A DNA stretch of 64,000 nucleotides from a bacterium (lineage in GTDB: Bacteria > Patescibacteriota > Minisyncoccia > Portnoybacterales > GWB1-42-6), in the NCBI GenBank assembly GCA_043800535.1, contig JAZDMV010000023.1:27264-91263 (forward strand), in the 5' to 3' direction. The translations under genes were made by a program, and so were the position numbers. Positions 7,642 to 57,391 of this stretch are shown here, piece after piece. Position 1 is the stretch's first letter, and each line of letters starts with the position of its first letter. Under the pieces are notes generated by a model. It saw only the letters and a program-made list of their open reading frames with translations. It did no database searches and was not told the DNA's origin.

Positions 7642-7664
7642 ATGCCCCGCACGGTGCGGGGCAT
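7642..7664 (+). terminator. Intrinsic terminator after the PMT-family gene. It is built on the recurrent CCCCGCACGGTGCGGGG palindrome.
   Basis: ATGCCCCGCAC-g-GTGCGGGGCAT followed by TTTATAATTATTT. Confidence 0.6.
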
Positions 7665-21756: not shown

Positions 21757-22863
21757 TTATATATTATACCCCACTTTCTTCAAAAAATCTATCAGCTCCC
21801 GCCTGAATCTTTCTTCTGAAAACTTCTCCGCCCGTTTATGGATAACAAGAGGGCTATAATTGGTGAGATTCTCGCGCAGGCGGCGGACTCCGTCCGCCAA
21901 AATCTCCGGCACCGCGTCGTAAAAAAATTCACCCGTTACGCCCGGAATTATTGTTTCAAGCGCGCCACCTCTGCCAAAAGCCAGAACCGGCTTGCCCCAA
22001 CCCATTGCCTCAACGGGCGCTATGCCAAAATCATCTTCGCCCGCAAAAACGAAAGCGGTGCAATTCTTCAGGTATTTATTTTTTTCCTCCTCGTTTCTTT
22101 CGCCTAAGAATTTAATTGTCGGGCCAGCCAGCTCCTCTAATTTTTCTCTTTCCGGCCCGTCACCGATTATTAAAAGCAGCAATTTCAAACGATTAAACGC
22201 CTCAATTGCCAGGTCAATGCGTTTATAGGGTGTCAGCTGCGATACAATCAGAAAATAATTTTCATCTTTTGCTGTCCTGAATTGTCCAAACGTCGGCAGA
22301 CAAACAGGCGGGTAAATAATAAAAGCGTTTCGGCGATAATACTTTTGTATTTTTTCTCTTGTCGCTCTGGAATTAGCGATAAAATAATCGGGCCGCCGCG
22401 ATGAGGATTTATCCCATATCCTCAAATAATGTACTACTAAAGTTGCCAAGGCCCGGCGAACTGGCCCAAAGTCTTGCTCGCGGATATATTGCTTGTTCCA
22501 GTCCCACAGAAACCTTGAAGGCGCGTGACAGTAGCAAATGTGCGTGGTGCCGGGCCGGGTGATTATGGATTTGGCGAAAGCCGAAGACGAAGAAATAACC
22601 AGATCGAATTCCCGCAGATCAAATGTTTCGGCCGCTACTGGTAAAAATGGCAGAAGGTGTTTCTGCCGGCGCCTGATAAATTTGGGCAGCTTTTGCAAAA
22701 AAGATGGCCGTATGTCTGCCCCTGCCAAAACTCCGCCCATTTTTTCTTCGTCGTATAAAAGAGTGTAAATCGGAGCTTCAGGAAAAATTTCATGCAATTT
22801 TAAAAGAACCCTCTCCGCCCCTCCTAATCTAATTAAATAATCGTGGACTAAAGCGACCTTCAT
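21757..22863 (-). CDS. Glycosyltransferase family 4 (GT-B).
   Basis: The C-terminal EX7E-like region is FVFAGEDDFGIAPVEAMGWGKPVLA. The start was chosen at the ATG that abuts the upstream stop, whereas the ORF track extends to 22908. Confidence 0.7.
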   Translation of the reverse strand: MKVALVHDYLIRLGGAERVLLKLHEIFPEAPIYTLLYDEEKMGGVLAGADIRPSFLQKLPKFIRRRQKHLLPFLPVAAETFDLREFDLVISSSSAFAKSIITRPGTTHICYCHAPSRFLWDWNKQYIREQDFGPVRRALATLVVHYLRIWDKSSSRRPDYFIANSRATREKIQKYYRRNAFIIYPPVCLPTFGQFRTAKDENYFLIVSQLTPYKRIDLAIEAFNRLKLLLLIIGDGPEREKLEELAGPTIKFLGERNEEEKNKYLKNCTAFVFAGEDDFGIAPVEAMGWGKPVLAFGRGGALETIIPGVTGEFFYDAVPEILADGVRRLRENLTNYSPLVIHKRAEKFSEERFRRELIDFLKKVGYNI

Positions 22864-23993
22864 TTTTCCGTCAAAAATTGCAGCGTCTCCTTCGCGCATT
22901 TTTTCCAACTAAACCGTTTTAAATTTTCGTATCCCAATTCTATCAGCTTATCACGCGCCTGCTTGTCGTCAATCAATTTGTAAATAGTTTCCGCGATCTC
23001 TTCAGAGTTTTTTGGACTAACAAGCAATGCCGAATTGTTTACCACTTCCGGCATGCTTGATATATTCGAAGTGACTACGGGAATACCAGCGGCCTGCGCC
23101 TCCAAAATCGGCATGCCAAAACCCTCATAGAGCGAAGGGAAAAGAAATACGTCTGCACCGGACAACAATTTTTGCTTTTCATCTTCGCTGACATAGCCAA
23201 GTTCGTGGACTTGAAACTTGAAACTTGAGACTTGAGACCTTATTTTATCATAGCCGAATCCCGGCGAGCCGACCAAAACCAATTCATGCGGGATTTTGTA
23301 CTTCTCTTTTAATGTATTATACGCCTCAAGAATCCCCAAAACATTCTTTTTCAATTCAATTCGTCCTATATACAACAAATATGGTCTGTCTACATCTGTC
23401 ATCCCGGGCTTGACCCGGGATCCAGGCTGTGGACTCTGACTTTTGTCAGATTTGCAAAATGACACTCCGTGATGTACTACGGTAATTTTTGATTCATCTG
23501 CCTCATATAGCTTCATCAAATCATTTTTCGTACTTTGGGACACCGCAATAATTTTTCTTGCATGCTTGACCGCATATTTTGTGCTCCATCGCAAATATTG
23601 CCGGTGACGCCACGGATACATTTCGGGAAAATACTCGTATTCCAGGCCATGAATCGTAACGACTGAATTTTTCGGATGCACCAACGGCAAAACATGCACT
23701 GGAATAAAAAGCGCATCGGGCTTATTAAAAACCATCTCCGACGCCAATCTCAACTGCGTCCACATCGGCAAAGGCCATTTTAATTTTTTGACCTGAAAAT
23801 TCTCGGGCAATTCAAAGTCAAATCTGGGTAAACCCGCCTCCGCTCTTCGAGCTACGGCGGGCAAGTATAACAAAAATCGATGCTCCCCAGCTTCTGGCAG
23901 CATCGTTAAATGTTTTATCAACTGGTATACATACTCTTCAACGCCCGTTCGCGGCTGTTTTATCGCCGCCGCAGCGTTAATTCCGATAGTCAT
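22860..23993 (-). CDS. Glycosyltransferase family 4 (GT-B) with an in-frame palindromic insertion in the interdomain linker.
   Basis: FLFPSLYEGFGMPILEAQAAGIPVV. The 66-bp GC-rich element at 23398..23463 lies inside the ORF. Confidence 0.7.
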   Translation of the reverse strand: MTIGINAAAAIKQPRTGVEEYVYQLIKHLTMLPEAGEHRFLLYLPAVARRAEAGLPRFDFELPENFQVKKLKWPLPMWTQLRLASEMVFNKPDALFIPVHVLPLVHPKNSVVTIHGLEYEYFPEMYPWRHRQYLRWSTKYAVKHARKIIAVSQSTKNDLMKLYEADESKITVVHHGVSFCKSDKSQSPQPGSRVKPGMTDVDRPYLLYIGRIELKKNVLGILEAYNTLKEKYKIPHELVLVGSPGFGYDKIRSQVSSFKFQVHELGYVSEDEKQKLLSGADVFLFPSLYEGFGMPILEAQAAGIPVVTSNISSMPEVVNNSALLVSPKNSEEIAETIYKLIDDKQARDKLIELGYENLKRFSWKKCAKETLQFLTEK

Positions 23994-39028: not shown

Positions 39029-40449
39029 ACAAAAATAGACAGAAAATTTTTACTTTATTAATAAATCTTAAAACCAAATCTCGCCCGCCATGGCTTTAGC
39101 GGCGGCGGGGCGGAGTTCGTTTGCCGTCATGCCTGTAATTTATCACAAAATCGCAATTTCGACAACCACGGCATCACATAATGGCGTCTCGCGCCGCAAA
39201 CTAGACAACCCTATGCCAAAAGTCAAAGGTTGTCTTGTGGATGCGCCATCTTTACAACAAAACCGCCATATGTTATATATTAATTGTACCTTTCAAATAC
39301 TCATTTCTTAGGCTATTTTATTCCGATATTCTATTAGGACACTCTATTTTTCCTATTTCACAGGAAAGGAGGTGTACATGAGACATTCCGAGCGTTTCTT
39401 TTCACATTATCTGGCCTTTTTCGACTCCAGAGCAGGTCCTACGATAGTGCCTACATTCCGCAAGAATGAAAGGGGGTGATAAAAATATGCGGGGCCGTGT
39501 TATCGGTCCTGAATGTTCATTTTTTACTTCGCCTTTTTGGAGGCATGATGCGTAATAGATTCCTCTGACAATTGAATGTATTTTCTTGCCGACTTCTTCT
39601 GAAGCCGGGGCCAAAATGAGCGACTAGCGTCGCACAGGCCGGTCCGACAAGCTCGGACACGAAAAACGGCCAAAAAGAAAAGAACGGGAAAAGAGGGGTG
39701 CAAGGACGTATAGCAAGGCGTAACAGCAAGAAACACACAAGCAAAGGCCATCAAGGTCATCAGGCGGAGCGGCCTTGAGCCAACAGACCGCCTCCGGACA
39801 GTGGGCATGTTAAAATCCGGGATTTTAGGACCGAGGTCTGGCTGTGCACGTGCACGCGCCAAAGAAATGCTTCGGTCGCGCAGAAGAAAGCGCTGCCAGA
39901 CGCCTGCTGCCGATTTCGAGCGAAGCGCAGAGACATCCGGCCCAGTGCCTGTTCTCTCAAAGGCTTTGCCGTCGTCATGCGCTCTCATTTTGTTCCCTCG
40001 TCTCATACTACAGTTCTTGCCCCCTCAATTCCCAACAAAAAAGACCTTCATCGTAAGGTCTTTTCTTTTACCCCCACACCAAGTTTTGGTGTGGGGGTTT
40101 ACAAAAAATTTTCCTGCCTGTGGATAATATTCTTTACAAAAACCCGTCAAAATGATATAAAGGAAATAGGTAATAGTTCTCTAACAAGAAAGGGAGAGGC
40201 GGGGCGCGAATACCAATAAATCTTCATTGCAACACTGAACTTATTTTAATACTCCCTCCTCACCACGGGGGCCACCTCCTCCCCCATCACCCATATCCGG
40301 CACCTCCTTTCTAGCCGCCTCGCCTCTTCCCTTTCTTTCTATATAAAAGCTCCCACCATCGGGAGCTTTTTCTTTTTTATTTAGACACCAAAACAAGCCA
40401 CATTCTGACAGAAATACCCGCGCTCTGGAGCGCGGGTATTTCTGTCACG
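39029..40449. other. Roughly 1.4 kb apparently non-coding, GC-enriched region with multiple hairpins and terminators and two tiny SD-preceded ORFs.
   Basis: No ORF with a plausible protein in any frame. Plus-strand terminator-like hairpins lie at 40042..40060, 40071..40097 and 40348..40380. Mini-ORFs at 39378 (26 aa) and 39476 (21 aa) each follow an AAGGAGG/AAGGGGG box. Confidence 0.5.
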
Positions 40450-41802
40450 TTACTGAATTACTCCTCCACCCAATAGTTCACCTTTTTTGCTATAGAACAC
40501 CGCGCTCTGTCCCGGCGTCACCGCCCGCTGGGGCTTGCCGAAAATTACACGCACAGTGTCATTGCGAGCCCCGACGTGAAATCGGGGCGTGGCAATCCTG
40601 TAAATAACAGCCGGACTAGCTTCGCTCTTATATCTTATTTTTATCAAAACTTCCTGCGGCAATTTTGCCTGCCCTCCGTAGCCTTGCCTGCCCGCAGTAG
40701 CTTTAGCGAAGGAGGGGCGGAGGCGGGGCGCTTGCCTGCTTGTCCAATTTATATTGCCCGCCGCCAGTTCTTTGCTATACAGATCTTTTTCATCGTTGCT
40801 GACATATAAAATATTTTTGCGCGTGTCTTTTTTAACCACCCACCACGGCCCCTGGTTCAATGGAATATTTTTACGCTGCCCGATGGTATAAAACGCTAGA
40901 CCCTGATGTTCACCCAAAATTTTACCATCTTTCAATTTGTCATTCCCGCGAAAGCGGGAATCCAGACTGGATACCGGATCAAGTCCGGCATGACACGAAT
41001 TATAATCTACTATTTTTCCTAGCTTCATTTTTATATATTTTTTCAAAAAGCTTTCAATATCGCGCGCCACAAAACAAAGATCAAAGCTCTCGCCCCGCCT
41101 GAAAGACAGTCTCCATTTTTTTGCTAATTTATACACTTCCTCTTTCGTATAGTCGGCCAAAGGAAATAATACGCGACTCAATTGCCTCTGTGTCAACGCA
41201 TACAAAAAATATGACTGATCCTTATCTTTATCCTTGGCCTTAAAAATTGTATACGTGTCATTGCGAGGAGCCCCGCACCGTGCGGGGCGACACGGCAATC
41301 CCAAAATGATATCGCCAACGGCTGTTTGCCTCGGGATTGCTTCGCCCCGACTTACATCGGGGCTCGCAATGACGCTACTTTGTATTTTCGCATAATGCCC
41401 GGTGGCAATATAATCAGCCCCCATGCCGAGCGCTTTTTTGAATAAAAGCCCAAACTTAATTTTTTTATTGCACACAACGCACGGATTTGGCGTTCGCCCG
41501 GCGTCGCTCTCGCGCAAAAAATGATCAACTACTTCTTTTTTAAATTCTTTCCCCAGGCGCAGGATATAAAAAGGGATGTCTAGTTTTGAAGCCACGTCTC
41601 TAGCCGCCTGCTCTGCACCCGCGCTACAGCAAGTATTTGTAGCCGCAAAGCGTGCATTCGGCTCTGCCCAGAAACGCATAAAAACGCCAACGACATCATA
41701 TCCTTGCTTTTTTAATAACGCCGCTGCCACAGAAGAATCAACCCCACCAGACATTGCAACTATTACTTTTCCCTTTGATTTGCGCATATTCTCTTCTATC
41801 AT
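40450..41802 (-). CDS. mnmA: tRNA-specific 2-thiouridylase MnmA carrying four in-frame palindromic-element insertions.
   Basis: VIVAMSGGVDSSVAA PP-loop...GADYIATGHYA...KDQSYFLY...AVTPGQSAVFY. It is about 83 aa longer than E. coli MnmA. The ORF-track start at 41970 is probably too far upstream, and the ATG at 41802 (MIEENMRKSKGKV) follows a terminator. Confidence 0.75.
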   Translation of the reverse strand: MIEENMRKSKGKVIVAMSGGVDSSVAAALLKKQGYDVVGVFMRFWAEPNARFAATNTCCSAGAEQAARDVASKLDIPFYILRLGKEFKKEVVDHFLRESDAGRTPNPCVVCNKKIKFGLLFKKALGMGADYIATGHYAKIQSSVIASPDVSRGEAIPRQTAVGDIILGLPCRPARCGAPRNDTYTIFKAKDKDKDQSYFLYALTQRQLSRVLFPLADYTKEEVYKLAKKWRLSFRRGESFDLCFVARDIESFLKKYIKMKLGKIVDYNSCHAGLDPVSSLDSRFRGNDKLKDGKILGEHQGLAFYTIGQRKNIPLNQGPWWVVKKDTRKNILYVSNDEKDLYSKELAAGNINWTSRQAPRLRPSFAKATAGRQGYGGQAKLPQEVLIKIRYKSEASPAVIYRIATPRFHVGARNDTVRVIFGKPQRAVTPGQSAVFYSKKGELLGGGVIQ

Positions 41803-41843
41803 TTTATTTTTTAGAATAACATCATTTTTGCCAAAAAGAAAAG

Positions 41844-41870
41844 CCCCGGATGAACATTGTTCATCCGGGG
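41844..41870 (-). terminator. Intrinsic terminator after the MYG1-like gene.
   Basis: Perfect 13-bp inverted repeat CCCCGGATGAACA-t-TGTTCATCCGGGG, followed on the minus strand by CTTTTCTTTTTGG. Confidence 0.6.
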
Positions 41871-41884
41871 CCACAAAAAGGGTA

Positions 41885-42979
41885 CTAAGCGGCTTTCTTA
41901 TGATAAAGATTGAACCGCTTATCCCTGCACTTTCTGAGCCCCCAGACATACTTTTCGCACCACCGCCCATTGCACTTTACCTCCTTGCATGGATCAACTA
42001 AGGGTGCACAAGCCAAAGCAATTGCCCCAGCCACTTCCATAAAAGAGAGGGCTGTTGGTTCCTTATCGGGCGCCGAGAAGCTCCCATTAAGAAGCTGACT
42101 CTTGTCCTTTTTGGAATAATACCAAAAATGGCATTTATCGCAATCCTCGGCCACCTCCATCTCCTGCCAGTCTGGCAGAATAATCTTACGTTTTACCAGC
42201 TCCTGCATCCGTACAATCCTTACCACATCAATAAAATTAATTTTCCGCTGAAAATCTGGCGTGGTGAAGATTGCCGTATTGCCAGTGGTGCGCCGCTGAA
42301 TTATAATATCAACCATGTCGCCAAATCTCCAACGGATCCATTTGTTCATCTTACGGCTATCTGATTCAACAACCGCGATTCCAACCGGACCTTTGATAAT
42401 CCGGCCTTTTTCACGAAATTCGTCTTCGCATTTAAAAAAGCGAATTTGGCCGCGCAGATGACGACGAATCCCATCCACCGCCCAATCAAACGCTGCTGGT
42501 AATTCCTTGTCACTCTCGCAATCATCCCAACCATCATTTAAAAGCGAGTGGATATCAAATGGCATACTTCGGCCTTCATCATCCACCCTTTTGCAAAATT
42601 GCAGGATCTTCTGCAGCTCTGGTTTGTGAGAAATCTGTAAAATTTCCGCCGCCAGATGCGCGCAGGAGGAAATACCTTTTCCGTGCTCGTCTAAAATTCC
42701 TCCCCCGATACCGATCGGGAGAATTTTGTCCTTTAATAAGATCTCGTCACCGCTCTTGCCTTTTGCATCCTCTGGCACGCGGCCTTCCGTCCAAAATTCC
42801 ATCCTTGCCTTTTCAACGCCAGGGAAGATTCCTCTGCCCCACGTCACACATTCTACGTATGCCAGAACCTCATCAAAATGCGGCATATTGTGAGTTGCAA
42901 TTTTCTTGACTGGCCACGGGCCAACACCTCCTAACCGCTTCTGCCACCATTTCAACTCTGTGCTCGCCATTGTCGCCAT
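41885..42979 (-). CDS. MYG1/UPF0160-family metal-dependent hydrolase with a Cys-rich C-terminal tail.
   Basis: IATHNMPHFDEVLAYV resembles the MYG1 N-terminal HxxxHxDE motif. The C-terminus is CDKCHFW...CAPLVDPCKEVKCNGRWCEKY. Confidence 0.5.
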   Translation of the reverse strand: MATMASTELKWWQKRLGGVGPWPVKKIATHNMPHFDEVLAYVECVTWGRGIFPGVEKARMEFWTEGRVPEDAKGKSGDEILLKDKILPIGIGGGILDEHGKGISSCAHLAAEILQISHKPELQKILQFCKRVDDEGRSMPFDIHSLLNDGWDDCESDKELPAAFDWAVDGIRRHLRGQIRFFKCEDEFREKGRIIKGPVGIAVVESDSRKMNKWIRWRFGDMVDIIIQRRTTGNTAIFTTPDFQRKINFIDVVRIVRMQELVKRKIILPDWQEMEVAEDCDKCHFWYYSKKDKSQLLNGSFSAPDKEPTALSFMEVAGAIALACAPLVDPCKEVKCNGRWCEKYVWGLRKCRDKRFNLYHKKAA

Positions 42980-51084: not shown

Positions 51085-51210
51085 CCCCGCCTAGAAGTTA
51101 CTCAAAAAATTGCCGACATTTACAAGAGCAAGCCGCAGGCGATTCGCTGGAAAACATTCACCAACCAAACACGTTGTCGAACTTCTGGCGGGGTCAAAAC
51201 TTTTTTTGTT
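51085..51210 (+). ncRNA. Candidate ~125-nt structured RNA closed by a 14-bp terminal stem and followed by a U-run. Its identity is unknown.
   Basis: CCCCGCCtAGAAGTT...(90 nt)...AACTTCTGGCGGGG, then TCAAAACTTTTTTTGTTG. It lies in the secD upstream intergenic region and has internal GCGATTCGC and GGAAAAC features. Confidence 0.3.
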
Positions 51211-51215
51211 GTTGA

Positions 51216-51244
51216 GCGGCGCCCCGCACGGTGCGGGGCGCCGC
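51216..51244. repeat. GC-rich palindrome GCGGCGCCCCGCAC-g-GTGCGGGGCGCCGC.
   Basis: The CCCCGCACGGTGCGGGG core recurs at 7645..7661 and, with the central GG replaced by CC, inside the mnmA insertion (41271..41287). Confidence 0.6.
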
Positions 51245-51319
51245 GGCTATCTTCCCTGTAATGATCAGACGCCTGAAAAAAATCAGGCCGGACAAAAATG
51301 TCCGACCTGCCTTTACAAC

Positions 51320-52150: not shown

Positions 52151-52681
52151 TTAATTTAATGAATCAACCACCGTAACCTCCCATTTAAGAACTTCGCACC
52201 CCTCTGGACTGTTAAACAGCGCCTTGCCACGAAACTTATCGCGTCTCAGGAGTAACGGAAGCCAATACCTATCAACCTGCCACATGTCATCATAAGGAAT
52301 ATCTTCGATTCTGAATTTTTGTGGGCGCATCTCGTTTGTTTCTTCCGCCTTCCCTTCCCATTTATCCGCCAGATAAGCATGCATCTCCACGATCAGCGGC
52401 ACTTCTGTAAATTCAAATTCCATAATTCCCTGCTTCTCTAATCTTTGTACTGAAATCCCGGCGCCTTCGAGGCCTCCTGTTTCCTCCCACACCTCCCTCA
52501 CTGCAATTGTGTCAATCCACTCGTCCGCCTCCTGTTTGCCTCCAAAACCATTCCATTTTCCGGCACCGAACAATCCCTCTTTTTTCATCCCCAACCAGAT
52601 CTCTCCTGTTTCAGGAATTGTGACGAAACACACCGTCGCTACTATTCTTTTCTTCTCCATAAATCCCTCCTCTTTTTTCAA
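52151..52681 (-). CDS. Nudix hydrolase.
   Basis: Nudix box GGKQEADEWIDTIAVREVWEETGG. Confidence 0.7.
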   Translation of the reverse strand: MKKEEGFMEKKRIVATVCFVTIPETGEIWLGMKKEGLFGAGKWNGFGGKQEADEWIDTIAVREVWEETGGLEGAGISVQRLEKQGIMEFEFTEVPLIVEMHAYLADKWEGKAEETNEMRPQKFRIEDIPYDDMWQVDRYWLPLLLRRDKFRGKALFNSPEGCEVLKWEVTVVDSLN

Positions 52682-54252: not shown

Positions 54253-54672
54253 TTATTTGTTCTTCAAGGCATCTTTTACCTGATTTATGTGATGCTCGAA
54301 ATGTGGTTCATCTCCTTCGTCAAATACCCAACTCATATGCGGCCTCTGCCTAATTTTATTTTCGCCGAATTTTTGGATATTATCTTCCAGTATTACCTGC
54401 CATTTTTCCAATTCAGATATAAGTGCCACTGGAGAATAGTTTTCGAACTCACGATAAATTCTGTCATTGAATTTATCGTAATTGTCCGTCGACATAAACC
54501 ATGGTTCCTTTCCTGTTTCAAAAACCTTTTCCAACTCATTAGCACACTCTCTTTCCCATCCGACTAAATGAGATAAAACATCTTTTACCTGCCATTTTTT
54601 CGTTACAGAAACTTTCCAATCTGATTCTTTAAGGGTTTTAAAAAAGGTTATTGTGTCCATGCTATTTTCCAT
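54253..54672 (-). CDS. Hypothetical DinB/YfiT-like protein.
   Basis: Helical bundle with HLVGWE...H pattern. The start was chosen at MENSMD (54672), which abuts the secA stop. Confidence 0.35.
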
Positions 54673-57391
54673 GGCACTTCTTATATTTCTTTCCACTTCC
54701 GCACCAGCAAGGGTCGTTGCGGCCCAGCTTAGCTGGGCTTGAGCCCCGCTGAGCGGGGCGGCCAATGTTTTTGTTACCTGAGGCAGAAGCAGATGGGTCG
54801 GTGCCACGATTTTCGCGCGCTTGCGCCAAAGGCAATTCTTGTCGCGGAGCGTCTTTTGCCAGCACGACTTTATAGATTGATTTTACAATATTTGACTCAA
54901 TCGCCGCCAGCAGATCCCGAAATAATCTGTGGCCTTCGTTTTTGTATTCAACCAGCGGGTCTTTCTGGCCATAAGCTCTTAATCTGACGCTGTCGCGCAG
55001 ATGCTCCATATTATCCAAGTGATCCATCCAGAAAATATCGATCGTCCGCAGGGTTAAAAACTTTTCAATTTCGCGCATGCTTTGCGGCCCGACTTCTTTT
55101 TCTTTCAGTTCATAGGCATTTCTGGCGGCTTCCAGCAAATAATTTATTATCTCATCCCGCTCTTTTAATTCCCGAATTTTTTGCTGGGCGTTAATTGGCA
55201 AAGGAAATATGGAATTTGCCGCTTCATAAATTTCTTTCAGATTCCATTCGCTCGCGTCTCCGGCCGTATTAAATTCCACCAGCCCCCGAACTTCTTTTCC
55301 TATCCATTCGCTGACCTGTTCGCGCAGATCAGCCCGTTTGTCATCGCGAGGAGCCGAGTCATCGAGGTGACGCGGCGATCCCGTGTTATGATTTTCTGCG
55401 GGATTGCTTCGCTCGCCCCCTCCAAGCGGGGTCTCGCTCTCAATGACACGACTTTTGCTTTCCAATATTTCTTTTCTCCATCTATAGATCCTCTCTCTCT
55501 GCTTATTCATCACGTCATCGTAATCAAGGACGTGTTTCCTGACATCAAAATTATATCCCTCGATCTTGGCCTGCGCGCCTTCAATCGCTTTTGATATCAT
55601 TCCGTTTTCTATTGCTTCGTCTTCCGGCATTTTCAAAACTTCCATCATCCGCTTAATTCTGTCCGAGCCAAAAATACGCATTAGATCGTCCTCCAACGAA
55701 ACAAAAAATTGTGAAGAACCCGGGTCGCCTTGACGTCCCGCTCTGCCGCGCAACTGGTTATCAATTCTCCGCGCCTCATGGCGCTCCGTGCCCAAAATAT
55801 GTAGGCCACCTGCCTCCACAACGCCTTCGCCAAGTTTAATATCAACGCCGCGGCCCGCCATATTGGTTGCCACTGTCACCGCGCCTTTTTGCCCTGCCTG
55901 CGCGATGATCTGCGCTTCCTGTTCGTGGTTTTTAGCATTCAAAAGCTGATGCGGAATGCCTTCTTTTTTAAGATAAGCGGATAAAAGTTCGTTTTTTTCT
56001 ATGGAAACAGTGCCCACAAGCACTGGCTGGCCAATTTTGTGTTTCTCTTTTATTTCCCGAACCACGGCGATAAATTTGCCGTTTTCCGTGCGATAGATCC
56101 TGTCACGCAGATCCTGACGCACCATGGGCTTGTTTGTCGGCGCAACCACCACCTCAAGCTTATAAACTTTGAAGAATTCCTCCGCGTTTGTTGCCGCGGT
56201 TCCCGTCATGCCGGCCAATTTATCATACATACGAAAATAATTCTGGAACGTAATTGTGGCCAATGTGCGCGACTCCTGCTGAACTTTAACGCCTTCTTTT
56301 GCCTCGATCGCCTGATGAAGGCCTTCTGAATACCGGCGGCCAAACATCAAACGGCCCGTAAAATCGTCCACAATGATAGCTTCACCATCTTTCACCACAT
56401 AATCCTTATCAAGTTTGAAAAGCACTTCCGCCCGCAATGCCTGTTCTAAATGATGAACATATCTTATGCCGCCTTCATTATAAATATCCATGCCCAGAAT
56501 TTTTTCAACTTTCGCAATGCCTTCCTCGCTTAAGCTAACCGTCCGCATTTTTTCATCAATTGTGTAATCTTCTTCTGCTTTTAATTTGGGCACGATCCTG
56601 GAAAAAGTTTCATATAGTTTTCCGGAATCAGCATCCGGCGCTGAAATAATAAGCGGCGTCCGCGCCTCGTCGATCAAAATTGAATCCACCTCGTCCACTA
56701 TCGCGTAGTGATGGCCTCGCTGAGCCATTTGCGACAGATCCTGCACCATGTTGTCCCGCAGATAATCAAATCCAAATTCGTTATTTGTGCCGTAAGTAAT
56801 ATCTGCCTGATAAGCAAGCGGGCGCGGCACTTCTTTTAAATTTTGCATTTCAACTGTGACTTCGTTTCTGTCCGGGCCGGAATGCGGTTCAAAAAGATAT
56901 GCTTTATCATGCACGACACAGCCGACCGAAACACCGAGTGCCTGATAAATCGGCCCCATCCAGTTGGTGTCACGTTTGGAAAGATAGTCGTTGACAGTGA
57001 CAACGTGCACGCCTTTGCCTTCCAGAGAGTTTAAATAAATTGCCAGGGTTGAGGCCAAAGTTTTGCCTTCGCCTGTTTTCATTTCCGCGATACGCCCCTG
57101 ATGTAAGACAGTCCCACCAAGAAGCTGCACATCAAAATGCCGCTGACCAAGCGTTCGTTTTGAAGCCTCGCGCACCGCGGCAAATGCCTCGGGCAGAAGC
57201 TCGTCCAGCGCCTCACCTCCGCCAACTGGCGGATTCAGGCGCTTACGAAATTCTTCAGTTTTTCCCTTAAGCTGCGGATCAGAAAGCGCCTCAAATTCTT
57301 TTTCCAACCCGTTGATCTTTTCAACCAACGGCATAAGTCTTGAGGCCTGCCGCTCATCCGCACTGCCGAAAATTTTAGATAGAATAGACAT
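54662..57391 (-). CDS. secA: Preprotein translocase ATPase SecA. It carries an in-frame 36-codon palindromic-element insertion and a C-terminal zinc finger.
   Basis: 909 aa. DEAD-like motor, and the C-terminal [15 protein letters not shown]. The segment [38 protein letters not shown] is encoded by 55340..55447. Confidence 0.9.

What the first reader, a model, noticed from the sequence alone, without database searches (positions are those of the whole stretch)
40450..41802. An essential tRNA-modification gene (mnmA) carries four in-frame GC-rich palindromic insertions, as seen for Rickettsia palindromic elements
The MnmA ORF is intact but about 83 aa longer than canonical MnmA. The extra residues map to four discrete GC-rich, hairpin-forming DNA segments that interrupt otherwise alignable MnmA sequence. 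Segment 41257..41373 is 117 bp, exactly 39 codons. It has perfect 11-bp terminal inverted repeats GTCATTGCGAG / CTCGCAATGAC enclosing nested hairpins (GCCCCGCACCGTGCGGGGC, GGCAATCC/GGATTGC, CCCCGACTTACATCGGGG). Segment 40558..40598 has the same left terminus plus a hairpin and encodes ...PRFHVGARNDT.... Segment 40939..40994 (GTCAT-TCCCGCGAAAGCGGGA-...-CCGGATCAAGTCCGG-CATGAC) encodes ...SRFRGNDK.... The ~80-bp G-rich segment 40664..40745 encodes SRQAPRLRPSFAKATAGRQGYGGQAKL. The encoded peptides are the kind of low-complexity junk expected from translating a palindrome, yet the reading frame is preserved each time.
Basis: partly seen in the sequence, partly recalled or inferred. Interest (0 to 1): 0.85.

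Follow-up and report, generated by a model that had tools for sequence, protein, structure and literature searches.

The report
Hairpin repeats translated inside mnmA
A tRNA-thiolation gene of an uncultured Patescibacteria (CPR) bacterium carries, in frame and in four surface loops, short GC-rich DNA insertions; three are hairpin repeats of a family widespread in bacteria, so the "coding palindromes" known from Rickettsia also occur in this group.

Summary
mnmA (window 40450-41802, minus strand, 450 aa) is an intact MnmA with the PP-loop and three catalytic or cluster cysteines. It is about 90 aa longer than insertion-free relatives. The extra residues sit at four discrete sites, all low-confidence loops in an AlphaFold model whose core superposes on solved MnmA. 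A syntenic orthologue (361 aa) lacks all four.

- **E1** (41257-41373, 117 bp), **E2** (40939-40994) and **E4** (40558-40599) are true palindromic elements with fold z-scores of -6.6, -4.3 and -3.3.
- **E3**, the G-rich segment (real insert 40666-40725), is not a palindrome (z +1.2) and has no other copy.

E2's left half matches the published Neisseria NTS/dRS3 consensus with one mismatch and fits the published Ssn-related-motif pattern. The E1/E4 type is common in sphingomonads, methylotrophs and many environmental contigs.

Further in-frame copies lie in secA and a glycosyltransferase gene in the same window. Related genomes hold intergenic copies. Across 120 CPR MnmA homologues the same loops are occupied repeatedly, in both orientations and with nested inserts.

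Verdict: a real, Rickettsia-palindromic-element-like phenomenon. It is a new host group for a known kind. How the elements move is unknown.

The parts
40450..41802 (-). mnmA coding sequence, 450 aa from MIEENMRK. It is intact, with the PP-loop SGGVDS (residues 18-23) and Cys108, Cys111 and Cys243 conserved.
   Evidence: AF2 model: pLDDT 77.6, pTM 0.77. Foldseek to MnmA structures 2hma, 2der and 2deu gives target-normalised TM 0.83-0.84.
41257..41373 (.). E1: a 117-bp (39-codon) inverted doublet at site A, the tip of the beta-hairpin after ATGHYA. The left unit is 41257-41301 (+), the spacer 41302-41333, and the right unit 41334-41373 (-). Peptide: V144-D182, VIASPDVSRGEAIPRQTAVGDIILGLPCRPARCGAPRND.
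   Evidence: 11-nt perfect terminal inverted repeats. Fold -66.2 kcal/mol, z -6.6, as an outer stem plus three hairpins. Absent from L081-L085 and L087. A related element sits at the same site in L086.
40939..40994 (.). E2: a 56-bp inverted doublet at site B, the hairpin tip after KxGKI in the PRC-barrel domain. The left unit at 40938-40965 (+), TGTCATTCCCGCGAAAGCGGGAATCCAG, is NTS-like. The right unit is 40967-40995 (-). Peptide: C270-D288.
   Evidence: Fold z -4.3. Matches the NTS consensus with 1 mismatch against 0 expected. Matches the published SRM pattern. 53 of 56 nt identical to L081, and 51 of 56 identical to the reverse complement of the L082 element at the same codon.
40666..40725 (-). 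E3: a 60-bp GC-rich insertion at site C, the loop entering the C-terminal barrel. Peptide: R360-A379, RLRPSFAKATAGRQGYGGQA. It is not a palindrome. It looks like a 30-bp unit (PRLRQGYGGQAK type) plus a further 30 bp.
   Evidence: Fold z +1.2 over 40664-40745. Shared with L084 and, in short form, with L087; absent from L081, L082, L083, L085 and L086. No other copy in the window or the close loci.
40558..40599 (.). E4: a single 42-bp (14-codon) unit of the E1 type at site D, a hairpin tip in the C-terminal barrel. Peptide: R402-D415, RIATPRFHVGARND.
   Evidence: Fold z -3.3. L085 and L086 carry GGATTGCCA.GC-[a different, self-complementary hairpin]-GCTCGCAAYGAC at the same site.
55340..55447 (.). 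A 108-bp (36-codon), partly degenerate E1-type doublet in frame in secA (54662-57391, minus strand). Peptide: [36 protein letters not shown].
   Evidence: Fold z -2.3. The alignment to B. subtilis SecA breaks at query 647-713 against chain 625-652.
23397..23425 (.). A single SRM-type unit, TGTCATCCCGGGCTTGACCCGGGATCCAG, in frame in the inter-domain linker of a GT4 glycosyltransferase (22860-23993, minus strand). Peptide: GSRVKPGMT.
51207..51251 (.). A degenerate intergenic copy of the E1 left unit, 80% identical and with the same inner hairpin, GCCCCGCACGGTGCGGGGC.

Best explanation
**What it is.** E1, E2 and E4 are copies of dispersed DNA hairpin repeats that landed in the coding sequence of mnmA. 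A unit is GTCAT, then a stem beginning ATT, a loop or variable inner hairpin, the return stem ending AAT, then CC. Units occur singly or as inverted doublets of about 55-120 bp. Only insertions that kept the frame, carried no stop codon and fell in tolerant surface loops survived. They are therefore transcribed and translated as disordered loop extensions, and the enzyme core stays intact.

**Shown**
- They are insertions relative to orthologues.
- They are palindromic.
- They belong to families repeated in this genome, in related CPR genomes and in other phyla.
- They lie in loops.
- The gene is under purifying selection.

**Inferred**
- The unit that is recognised and spread is the single-stranded DNA hairpin, handled by a hairpin-specific enzyme. 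Candidates are an Ssn-type GIY-YIG nuclease, as for Neisseria NTS, or a HUH/Y1 transposase, as for REP elements. No such gene is in the window.
- Site occupancy turns over by repeated gain, nested insertion and possibly gene conversion or inversion.

**E3.** This is a separate, non-palindromic GC-rich insertion of unknown origin at a fourth tolerant loop.
For: **Insertion status**
- phmmer against PDB MnmA splits the protein into four stretches, with the extra residues at 143-182, 266-290 and 357-398.
- Syntenic orthologue L083/P0011 (361 aa) is empty at all four sites.
- Baselines over 120 homologues are given.

**Loop location**
- The pLDDT<50 segments 149-151, 162-177, 277-289, 362-379 and 409-411 fall in the four inserts. 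The core matches 2hma and 2der with TM 0.83-0.84.

**Palindromes**
-.

**Repeat family**
- NTS match, and SRM pattern 3 hits against 0.13 expected, with both definitions taken from PMC11893778.
- At least 120 viral-contig loci carry GTCATTGCGAG-N15-45-GCAATCC, with lengths clustered at 33-40 nt. Many are inverted doublets like E1.
- Plasmid BLAST hits include Neisseria (34-35 places per record), Azospirillum, Novosphingobium (40 or more places), Methylosinus and Legionella.
- The inner hairpin covaries: 4 of 5 pairs change on both sides, score 0.153 against 0.044, with 0 of 500 shuffles as high.

**Mobility within the clade**
- In-frame copies lie in secA and the GT4 gene. Intergenic copies are at L085 2485-2583, L086 1322-1374 and L084 3745-3784.
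- The same element types sit at different MnmA sites in different orthologues, for example the E2 type at site A in P0056 and the VIA..RND type at site D in P0037, P0055 and P0067.
- E2 lies in opposite orientation at the same codon in two clades.
- Filled and empty states are patchy on the tree.

**Translation**
- All five GTCAT-type copies in the window are stop-free and frame-preserving.
- Nested inserts in orthologues are 33, 48 and 33 bp.
- Flanking codons show identities of 0.76, 0.80 and 0.51 at positions 1, 2 and 3.

**Independent assemblies**
- Five projects carry elements at the same sites.
Against: - No transposase, Ssn-type GIY-YIG gene or Y1 gene was found in the 64-kb window or next to the copies examined, so the mobilising enzyme is conjecture.
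- No target-site duplication is visible.
- Copy number is low here: about 6 units in 64 kb. They are concentrated in mnmA, with 10 of 16 units in about 6% of the DNA across the window and 7 syntenic loci. A randomly inserting selfish element does not predict that.
- E2 is 95% identical between the window and L081, while third codon positions are 51% identical (P about 1e-12). Simple neutral decay after one old insertion does not explain this.
- E1 and E4 do not fit the published SRM pattern (my check of that pattern against the sequence).
- E3 has no second copy and no significant fold.
- Translation of the inserts is inferred from frame preservation, not observed.
Confidence: 0.8

Rival explanations
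1. The in-gene hairpin repeats are kept by selection for a host-level, DNA-level function, rather than merely tolerated. They could be target sites of an Ssn-like single-strand nuclease that limits recombination or transformation across core genes, or sites for another hairpin-binding protein. This overlaps with the best explanation for their origin and differs on why they persist.
For: - E2 is 53 of 56 nt identical between the window and L081, and 51 of 56 identical to the inverted copy in L082. Gene-wide identity is 0.64-0.69 and four-fold sites are 0.32-0.45 identical.
- All three window-L081 differences are nonsynonymous, so the constraint is not on the peptide.
- The terminal boxes of E1 and E4 are near-identical in L086 and L085, while the inner stems differ in a compensatory way.
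- In Neisseria, NTS repeats are the targets of SsnA and modulate transformation (PMC11893778).
Against: - Recent independent insertion from conserved master copies, or gene conversion from other genomic copies, would give the same conservation.
- Many close orthologues do well without any element (L083; the 61 of 93 homologues with the 7-aa baseline at site B).
- No ssn gene was seen.
Confidence: 0.2
2. The segments are lineage-specific loop extensions that arose in place, by slippage, quasi-palindrome template switching or local duplication. On this view they only look like mobile elements.
For: - E3 looks partly like a local duplication of a 30-bp unit and has no other copy.
- Site A carries unrelated simple repeats in other orthologues, for example AATCGCAA tandem repeats in L082. 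These loops therefore do grow by other routes.
Against: - E1, E2 and E4 share 11-28-nt boxes with copies in other genes, in intergenic DNA and in other phyla, including an exact match to a published consensus.
- The same element occurs in both orientations.
Confidence: 0.05
3. The segments are removed before the mature protein is made, as an intron-like RNA, by translational bypass or as an intein. The enzyme would then be of canonical length.
For: E1 and E2 fold into compact structures closed by a stem exactly at the insertion boundaries.
Against: - Every copy, and every nested insert, preserves the frame and lacks stop codons. That is needed only if they are translated.
- No Rfam intron or other RNA family matches.
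- No intein motifs are present; the peptides are 9-39 aa.
- Elements occur in both orientations relative to the mRNA. That fits a DNA element, not an RNA signal.
Confidence: 0.03
4. The segments are an assembly or binning artefact, with chimeric repeats collapsed into a gene.
For: The source is a metagenome-assembled genome. Repeats are a known cause of mis-assembly.
Against: - Elements sit at the same codons in independent assemblies from JGI, ENA and NCBI samples. P0005 was seen on 13 contigs.
- Synteny is conserved around the gene.
- The reading frame is kept every time.
Confidence: 0.01

Closest known systems
Rickettsia palindromic elements (RPE; Ogata et al. 2000 and 2002, as summarised in the MITE review PMC10969869)
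   Same: Both are short palindromic repeats found in frame inside many unrelated, often housekeeping, genes and also between genes. They are translated as extra peptide segments at positions compatible with the fold. No associated transposase and no target duplication is evident.
   Different: - The host is a Patescibacteria/CPR bacterium, not Rickettsia.
- The units are shorter, at 26-45 nt or doublets of 56-117 bp against about 100-150 bp.
- One gene carries three elements.
- The same loops are occupied repeatedly across orthologues, in both orientations and with nested inserts.
- Sequence homology to the RPE families was not tested, because I held no RPE sequence.
Neisseria NTS / dRS3 repeats and Ssn-related motifs (SRM), the single-stranded DNA targets of Ssn GIY-YIG nucleases (PMC11893778)
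   Same: - E2's left unit equals the NTS consensus CGTCATTCCCGCGMAVGCGGGAATCYRG apart from its first base. It contains the dRS3 core ATTCCC-N8-GGGAAT.
- E2's left unit and the GT4 copy fit the published SRM pattern.
- Both are hairpin-forming and occur as inverted pairs.
- That paper lists Rickettsia and Wolbachia among SRM-rich genomes.
   Different: - NTS/SRM repeats are described as repeats clustering around genes, not as translated inserts.
- No ssn gene was found in the window.
- E1 and E4 (the ATTGCGAG type, with an inner variable hairpin) do not fit the SRM pattern.
- That paper's main text does not mention Patescibacteria.
REP / REPIN elements with RAYT (Y1/HUH) transposases, and BIMEs
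   Same: All are imperfect palindromes of about 30-45 nt with conserved ends and variable, compensating stems. They commonly occur as inverted doublets that fold into one long hairpin.
   Different: - REPs are extragenic by definition and start with GT[AG]G. These start with GTCAT and sit in frame in genes.
- No RAYT is present in the window. The one Y1_Tnp gene seen, in L087, is not flanked by these motifs.
Coding palindromes in mitochondrial genes of Nematomorpha (PMC6649704), and in-frame intragenic MITEs such as ERIC and BOX (PMC10969869)
   Same: Inverted repeats are embedded in, and translated with, protein-coding genes.
   Different: The genomes, sequence families and sizes are all different. 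I know PMC6649704 only from its title and abstract.

Membership tests
RPE-like coding palindromes | A palindromic sequence that forms a stable hairpin | tested here: met
   E1 z -6.6, E2 z -4.3 and E4 z -3.3. Not met for E3 (z +1.2).
RPE-like coding palindromes | Inserted in frame in intact genes, at surface positions compatible with the fold | tested here: met
   The ORF and catalytic motifs are intact. The inserts coincide with the low-pLDDT loops, and the core has TM 0.83-0.84 to MnmA structures. secA and the GT4 gene also carry in-frame copies.
RPE-like coding palindromes | Repeated in the genome, both within and between genes | tested here: met
   The window holds five in-frame units and one degenerate intergenic unit. 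Related CPR loci hold intergenic copies. Only 64 kb of the genome could be examined.
RPE-like coding palindromes | Sequence homology to Rickettsia RPE families 1-10 | not tested
   No RPE sequence was available in the collections searched, and the plasmid BLAST returned no Rickettsia record.
NTS / SRM repeats (Ssn system) | Match to the NTS consensus with at most 1 mismatch, or to the SRM degenerate pattern | tested here: met
   For E2's left unit, 40938-40965 has 1 mismatch to NTS against 0 expected. The SRM pattern gives 3 hits against 0.13 expected, including 40938-40965 and 23397-23425. E1, E4 and E2's right unit do not fit the pattern.
NTS / SRM repeats (Ssn system) | A cognate ssn gene (small GIY-YIG protein, cd10448) in the genome, typically flanked by the repeats | tested here: inconclusive
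   A GIY-YIG motif scan of six-frame translations found nothing in the window, the 7 syntenic loci or 2.1 Mb of other loci. This was a motif-level test only, and the rest of the genome is not available.
NTS / SRM repeats (Ssn system) | Hundreds of copies per genome | not testable with these tools
   Only a 64-kb window of a 191,907-bp contig is held.
REP / REPIN-RAYT | A 5' GT[AG]G tetranucleotide, extragenic location, and an associated Y1 (RAYT) transposase | tested here: not met
   The units start with GTCAT and are intragenic. tblastn with a Y1_Tnp protein finds nothing in the window or near the other copies. The inverted-doublet architecture is shared.
MITE (non-autonomous derivative of an insertion sequence) | Terminal inverted repeats, target-site duplication, and a parent insertion sequence with the same ends | tested here: inconclusive
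   Terminal inverted repeats are present: 11 nt in E1 and 5-8 nt in E2. No duplication is visible at the filled sites compared with the empty ones. No parent insertion sequence was seen.

The most novel reading that the evidence does not exclude
In this Patescibacteria clade, NTS/SRM-type single-stranded-DNA hairpin sites are not passive junk.

- They are re-installed or conserved at particular loop-coding positions of core genes, and mnmA is a strong hot spot.
- They are kept at 91-95% identity while synonymous sites are near saturation.
- They occur in either orientation and accept nested inserts at one point of the hairpin.

That would imply one of two things. Either a site- and structure-specific insertion or conversion machinery works inside coding DNA, or the host selects for a DNA-level function, such as control of recombination or transformation, embedded in essential genes.
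Probability: 0.25. Interest if true: 0.8.

Novelty: new member of a known kind. Interest (0 to 1): 0.55.

Why it matters
- **Scope.** It takes "coding palindromes" out of the Rickettsia special case. The 2024 MITE review still treats RPEs as exceptional and only speculates that other prokaryotes might do the same (PMC10969869).
- **A link between two literatures.** It ties the phenomenon by sequence to the NTS/dRS3/SRM hairpin repeats, whose partner nuclease family (Ssn) was described only in 2025. It does so in a major uncultured bacterial group with small genomes.
- **Annotation and phylogeny.** These inserts inflate protein lengths and add low-complexity segments to marker genes. They can mislead alignment, tree building and domain annotation of CPR proteins. 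The deposited annotation of this gene also has an over-extended start.
- **A natural experiment.** Many orthologues carry filled, empty, inverted or nested states at the same codons. That is material for working out how such hairpin repeats move and why they are conserved.

Tried and rejected
- **Protein search with the E1 peptide**: no candidate shared enough 5-residue words, so nothing was learned.
Only L001 is a CPR relative at 50% identity. It was not useful for counting elements.
- **Rfam**, whole window at gathering threshold and the gene at E<=5: no family matched. An RNA-family explanation was dropped.
- **Y1/IS200 transposase lead.** A Y1_Tnp gene lies two genes from mnmA in L087. There is none in the window or in 2.1 Mb of loci holding the repeats, and its flanks lack the motifs. 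It is not supported as the mobiliser.
- **GIY-YIG (Ssn) motif scan**: nothing found. This is inconclusive because only a regular expression was used.
- **Text search of papers for the element sequences**: only unrelated primers turned up.
- **Literature searches for palindromic or in-frame repeats in CPR, Patescibacteria or Parcubacteria**: no report found in the held library.
- **GC-island scan**: not discriminating at 44% genome GC.
- **ORF-occupancy estimate in viral contigs**: 35% of units lie inside stop-free stretches of at least 150 aa, against 70% for random positions. This is only a rough measure because GC-rich contigs have long spurious ORFs.
- **The Ssn paper's supplementary tables** are not held, so I could not see whether any CPR genome was in their survey.
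Full report
**The gene.** The minus-strand ORF ending at 40450 translates from 41802 as a 450-aa MnmA.
- Pfam finds the tRNA_Me_trans HUP, PRC-barrel and C-terminal barrel domains.
- The best PDB sequence matches are MnmA entries 9hln, 2hma and 2der, with E values of 1e-59 to 1e-67.
- The PP-loop SGGVDS and Cys108, Cys111 and Cys243 are invariant across 31 aligned homologues.
- Between orthologues, codon positions 1, 2 and 3 are 0.76, 0.80 and 0.51 identical. This is a gene under purifying selection, not a pseudogene.
- The longer ORF running to 41970, and the 499-aa call in the public record (P0001), are probably over-extended. Homologues start a few residues before the VVVAMSGG motif.
- The closest homologues are named Portnoybacteria, Nealsonbacteria, Staskawiczbacteria and Patescibacteria. 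The best non-self hit is only 59% identical.

**Are the four segments insertions?** Yes.
- phmmer against solved MnmA breaks the protein into four alignable stretches. The extra residues fall at 143-182, 266-290 and 357-398. The fourth insert is hidden in a forced alignment.
- I measured the four linkers in 120 CPR homologues. Baselines are 15, 7, 14 and 22-23 aa, against 56, 31, 34 and 32 aa in the window protein.
- Seven orthologous loci were fetched; six keep the same gene order (SecD-SecF-sigma70-DUF8128-TraG-like-EF-P-...-mnmA, five of them continuing into SLT/AlaRS), and the seventh, L082, is a 4.4-kb contig too short to show it.
- L083 (361 aa) is empty at all four sites. The others carry different subsets (codon alignment).
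- An AlphaFold2 model (pLDDT 77.6) has its pLDDT<50 segments at 149-151, 162-177, 277-289, 362-379 and 409-411. Each lies inside one of the four inserts. The rest superposes on 2hma, 2der and 2deu with target-normalised TM 0.83-0.84.

**Are they palindromes?** Three are.
- E1 (41257-41373, 117 bp) has perfect 11-nt terminal inverted repeats. It folds as an outer stem closing three hairpins, at -66.2 kcal/mol and z -6.6.
- E2 (40939-40994) has the same plan on a smaller scale, z -4.3.
- E4 (40558-40599) is a single unit, z -3.3.
- The G-rich segment does not fold better than shuffles (z +1.2). Relative to orthologues it is a 60-bp insert at 40666-40725. It has no other copy in the window or in the syntenic loci. 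It is a different kind of insertion.

**What are the elements?** The unit is GTCAT, a stem beginning ATT, a loop or a variable inner hairpin, the return stem ending AAT, then CC. E1 and E2 are inverted doublets of such units, and E4 is a singlet.
- E2's left unit, TGTCATTCCCGCGAAAGCGGGAATCCAG (40938-40965), matches the Neisseria Transformation Sequence consensus CGTCATTCCCGCGMAVGCGGGAATCYRG with one mismatch, against none expected.
- That unit also fits the published degenerate Ssn-related-motif pattern. The pattern hits the window 3 times against 0.13 expected.
- Both definitions come from PMC11893778. That paper shows NTS (which contains dRS3, ATTCCC-N8-GGGAAT) is bound and cut, as single-stranded DNA only, by the small GIY-YIG nuclease SsnA. 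It lists Rickettsia, Wolbachia, Neisseria and Sphingomonas among SRM-rich genomes.
- BLAST of E2 against plasmid records finds Neisseria (34-35 places per record), Azospirillum and Sphingopyxis.
- The Sphingopyxis hit is an 87-bp doublet lying in frame inside an annotated ileS gene.
- The E1/E4 type does not fit the SRM pattern, but it is just as widespread. Lengths cluster at 33-40 nt, and many hits have the inverted partner CTCGCAATGAC downstream.
- A consensus doublet of the E1 type hits Novosphingobium (40 or more places), Methylosinus, Methylocystis, Aulosira and Legionella plasmids.
- In 27 distinct 33-nt units the inner hairpin covaries. Four of five pairs change on both sides, with a score of 0.153 against 0.044 in shuffles and 0 of 500 shuffles as high. 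The outer stem was fixed by the search pattern, so it says nothing.
- The commonest inner sequence contains GCGAAGC. From my own knowledge this is a very stable DNA mini-hairpin, which fits a DNA-level structure. This is a recollection, not a test.

**Evidence that they move within this clade**
- The window has further in-frame copies. One is a 108-bp doublet in secA at 55340-55447. There the alignment to B. subtilis SecA has 65 residues against 26. Another is a single unit in the inter-domain linker of a GT4 glycosyltransferase at 23397-23425. A degenerate intergenic half-copy lies at 51207-51251.
- Related genomes have intergenic copies: L085 2485-2583 (a full doublet), L086 1322-1374 and L084 3745-3784.
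- Among the 120 MnmA homologues the same element types occur at different sites. Examples are the E2 type at site A in P0056 and the VIA...RND type at site D in P0032, P0037, P0055 and P0067.
- At site B, the window and its sister L081 carry the doublet in one orientation, while L082, L084 and L085 carry it reversed at the same codon. After reverse-complementing, 51 of 56 nt are identical.
- On a neighbour-joining tree, the window plus P0002 pair is sister to P0011 plus P0014, which are empty at sites B, C and D. Empty genes have a uniform 7-aa linker at site B (61 of 93). Repeated gain is therefore more economical than one gain with many exact losses. Bootstrap values were not displayed, so I hold this loosely.
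- L082 and L084 are 84% identical in DNA. Yet they differ by a 63-bp site-C insert and a 48-bp nested insert, so turnover is fairly fast.

**Are they translated?** This is inferred, not observed.
- All five GTCAT-type copies in the window preserve the frame and lack stop codons.
- Nested inserts in orthologues are 33, 48 and 33 bp.
- This is expected only if the ribosome reads through them. No Rfam family matches.

**What remains unexplained**
- E2 is 53 of 56 nt identical between the window and L081. The genes are 69% identical overall, 51% at third positions and 42% at four-fold sites (P about 3e-6 to 1e-12). All three differences change the amino acid. The constraint, or the homogenisation, therefore acts on the nucleic acid.
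- In E1 and E4 the terminal boxes are conserved against L086 and L085, while the inner stems are replaced by different self-complementary sequences.
- A 33-bp palindrome nested in the NTS loop is identical over 45 nt (about 50 nt when the flanking element sequence is included) in L081 and L085. Those host doublets are in opposite orientation and the genes lie in different clades.
- mnmA holds 10 of the 16 GTCAT-type units seen in about 175 kb of window plus syntenic loci.
- No Ssn-type or Y1 gene was found in the DNA held. The rest of the genome is out of reach.

**Comparison and verdict.** In behaviour this is the Rickettsia palindromic element phenomenon. By sequence, at least E2 belongs to the NTS/dRS3/SRM repeats. 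In architecture the doublets resemble REPINs, but they fail the REP definition: they start with GTCAT, they are intragenic, and there is no RAYT.
- I found no report of such coding repeats in CPR or Patescibacteria in the held literature.
- The 2024 MITE review treats RPEs as the exceptional case.
- I therefore file it as a new member of a known kind. It is real and of moderate interest.
- There is a less likely but more interesting possibility: that the in-gene copies are actively maintained or re-installed.

Noticed in passing
window 55340-55447 (secA, 54662-57391, minus strand): A 108-bp, 36-codon E1-type doublet lies in frame in SecA (VIESE...APRDD), between the scaffold and wing regions. 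B. subtilis SecA has 26 residues where this protein has 65.
   Followed up: yes
window 23397-23425 (GT4 glycosyltransferase, 22860-23993, minus strand): A single SRM-pattern unit lies in frame (GSRVKPGMT) in the linker between the two Rossmann domains. The identical 29-nt unit forms the right half of the site-B doublet in L084 and L085.
   Followed up: yes
window 7644-7662 and 51220-51240: The 19-nt inner hairpin of E1, GCCCCGCACNGTGCGGGGC, also occurs between convergent genes, followed by a T-run like a terminator, and in an intergenic degenerate half-element. Inner hairpins seem to be shared between elements and terminator-like sites.
   Followed up: partly
window 40406-40447: A perfect 20+20-nt palindrome, TGACAGAAATACCCGCGCTC / GAGCGCGGGTATTTCTGTCA, starts 3 nt after the mnmA stop codon (-34.8 kcal/mol). 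It has no obvious U-run and no other copy was seen.
   Followed up: partly
window 41803-41970: The public 499-aa call for this gene (P0001) and the 506-aa ORF extend upstream over a hairpin at about 41846-41873 (read by eye, not checked with the terminator scan) and overlap the end of the upstream gene (41885-42979). The likely true start is 41802.
   Followed up: partly
window 41885-42979 (minus strand): The 364-aa protein just upstream of mnmA has no Pfam match. A protein of similar size holds the same position in L081, L083 and L084.
   Followed up: no
homologues P0004, P0008, P0014, P0038, P0091, P0097 (N-termini): Another in-frame insert, PxKSLRDxTGQAGG, splits the PP-loop leader and is flanked by a duplicated VVVAMS coding stretch. 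It looks like a long target duplication, or an upstream in-frame copy read into an over-extended ORF call.
   Followed up: no
L081, L082, L084 site A (mnmA codons after ATGHYA): The same loop that holds E1 in the window holds unrelated AT-rich simple repeats in other orthologues. Examples are IRNPKSENRNKSQIQN and AATCGCAA tandem repeats. The loop therefore also grows by other routes.
   Followed up: partly
L081 10797-10841 and L085 8227-8271: A 33-bp palindrome, CTGCGCTTCGCCGAAGGCTTCGGCAAGGCGAGC, is nested at the same point of the NTS hairpin and is identical over 45 nt (about 50 nt with flanking element sequence) in two genomes of different clades. A related copy sits in the centre of the site-A element of L086.
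   Followed up: partly
L087 8291-8671: An IS200-like Y1_Tnp gene (126 aa, HUH motif) is inserted between the TraG-like gene and efp, two genes from mnmA. It is not flanked by GTCAT-type units.
   Followed up: yes
L208 1501-1587 (Sphingopyxis indica plasmid pMC4, ileS): An 87-bp (29-codon) NTS-type inverted doublet lies in frame inside an annotated isoleucyl-tRNA synthetase gene of an alphaproteobacterium (RHPRESGNP...DSRFRGND). In-frame copies of this family are therefore not confined to CPR.
   Followed up: partly
window secA residues about 160-189: There is a second extra segment of about 22 aa relative to B. subtilis SecA ([28 protein letters not shown]). No GTCAT-type box or terminal-repeat element was detected in it by the window-wide scans.
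   Followed up: no
window 52595-52625: This is a third match to the SRM pattern (CGTCACAATTCCTGAAACAGGAGAGATCTGG), inside an ORF. The stem is weak and it is probably a chance match.
   Followed up: no
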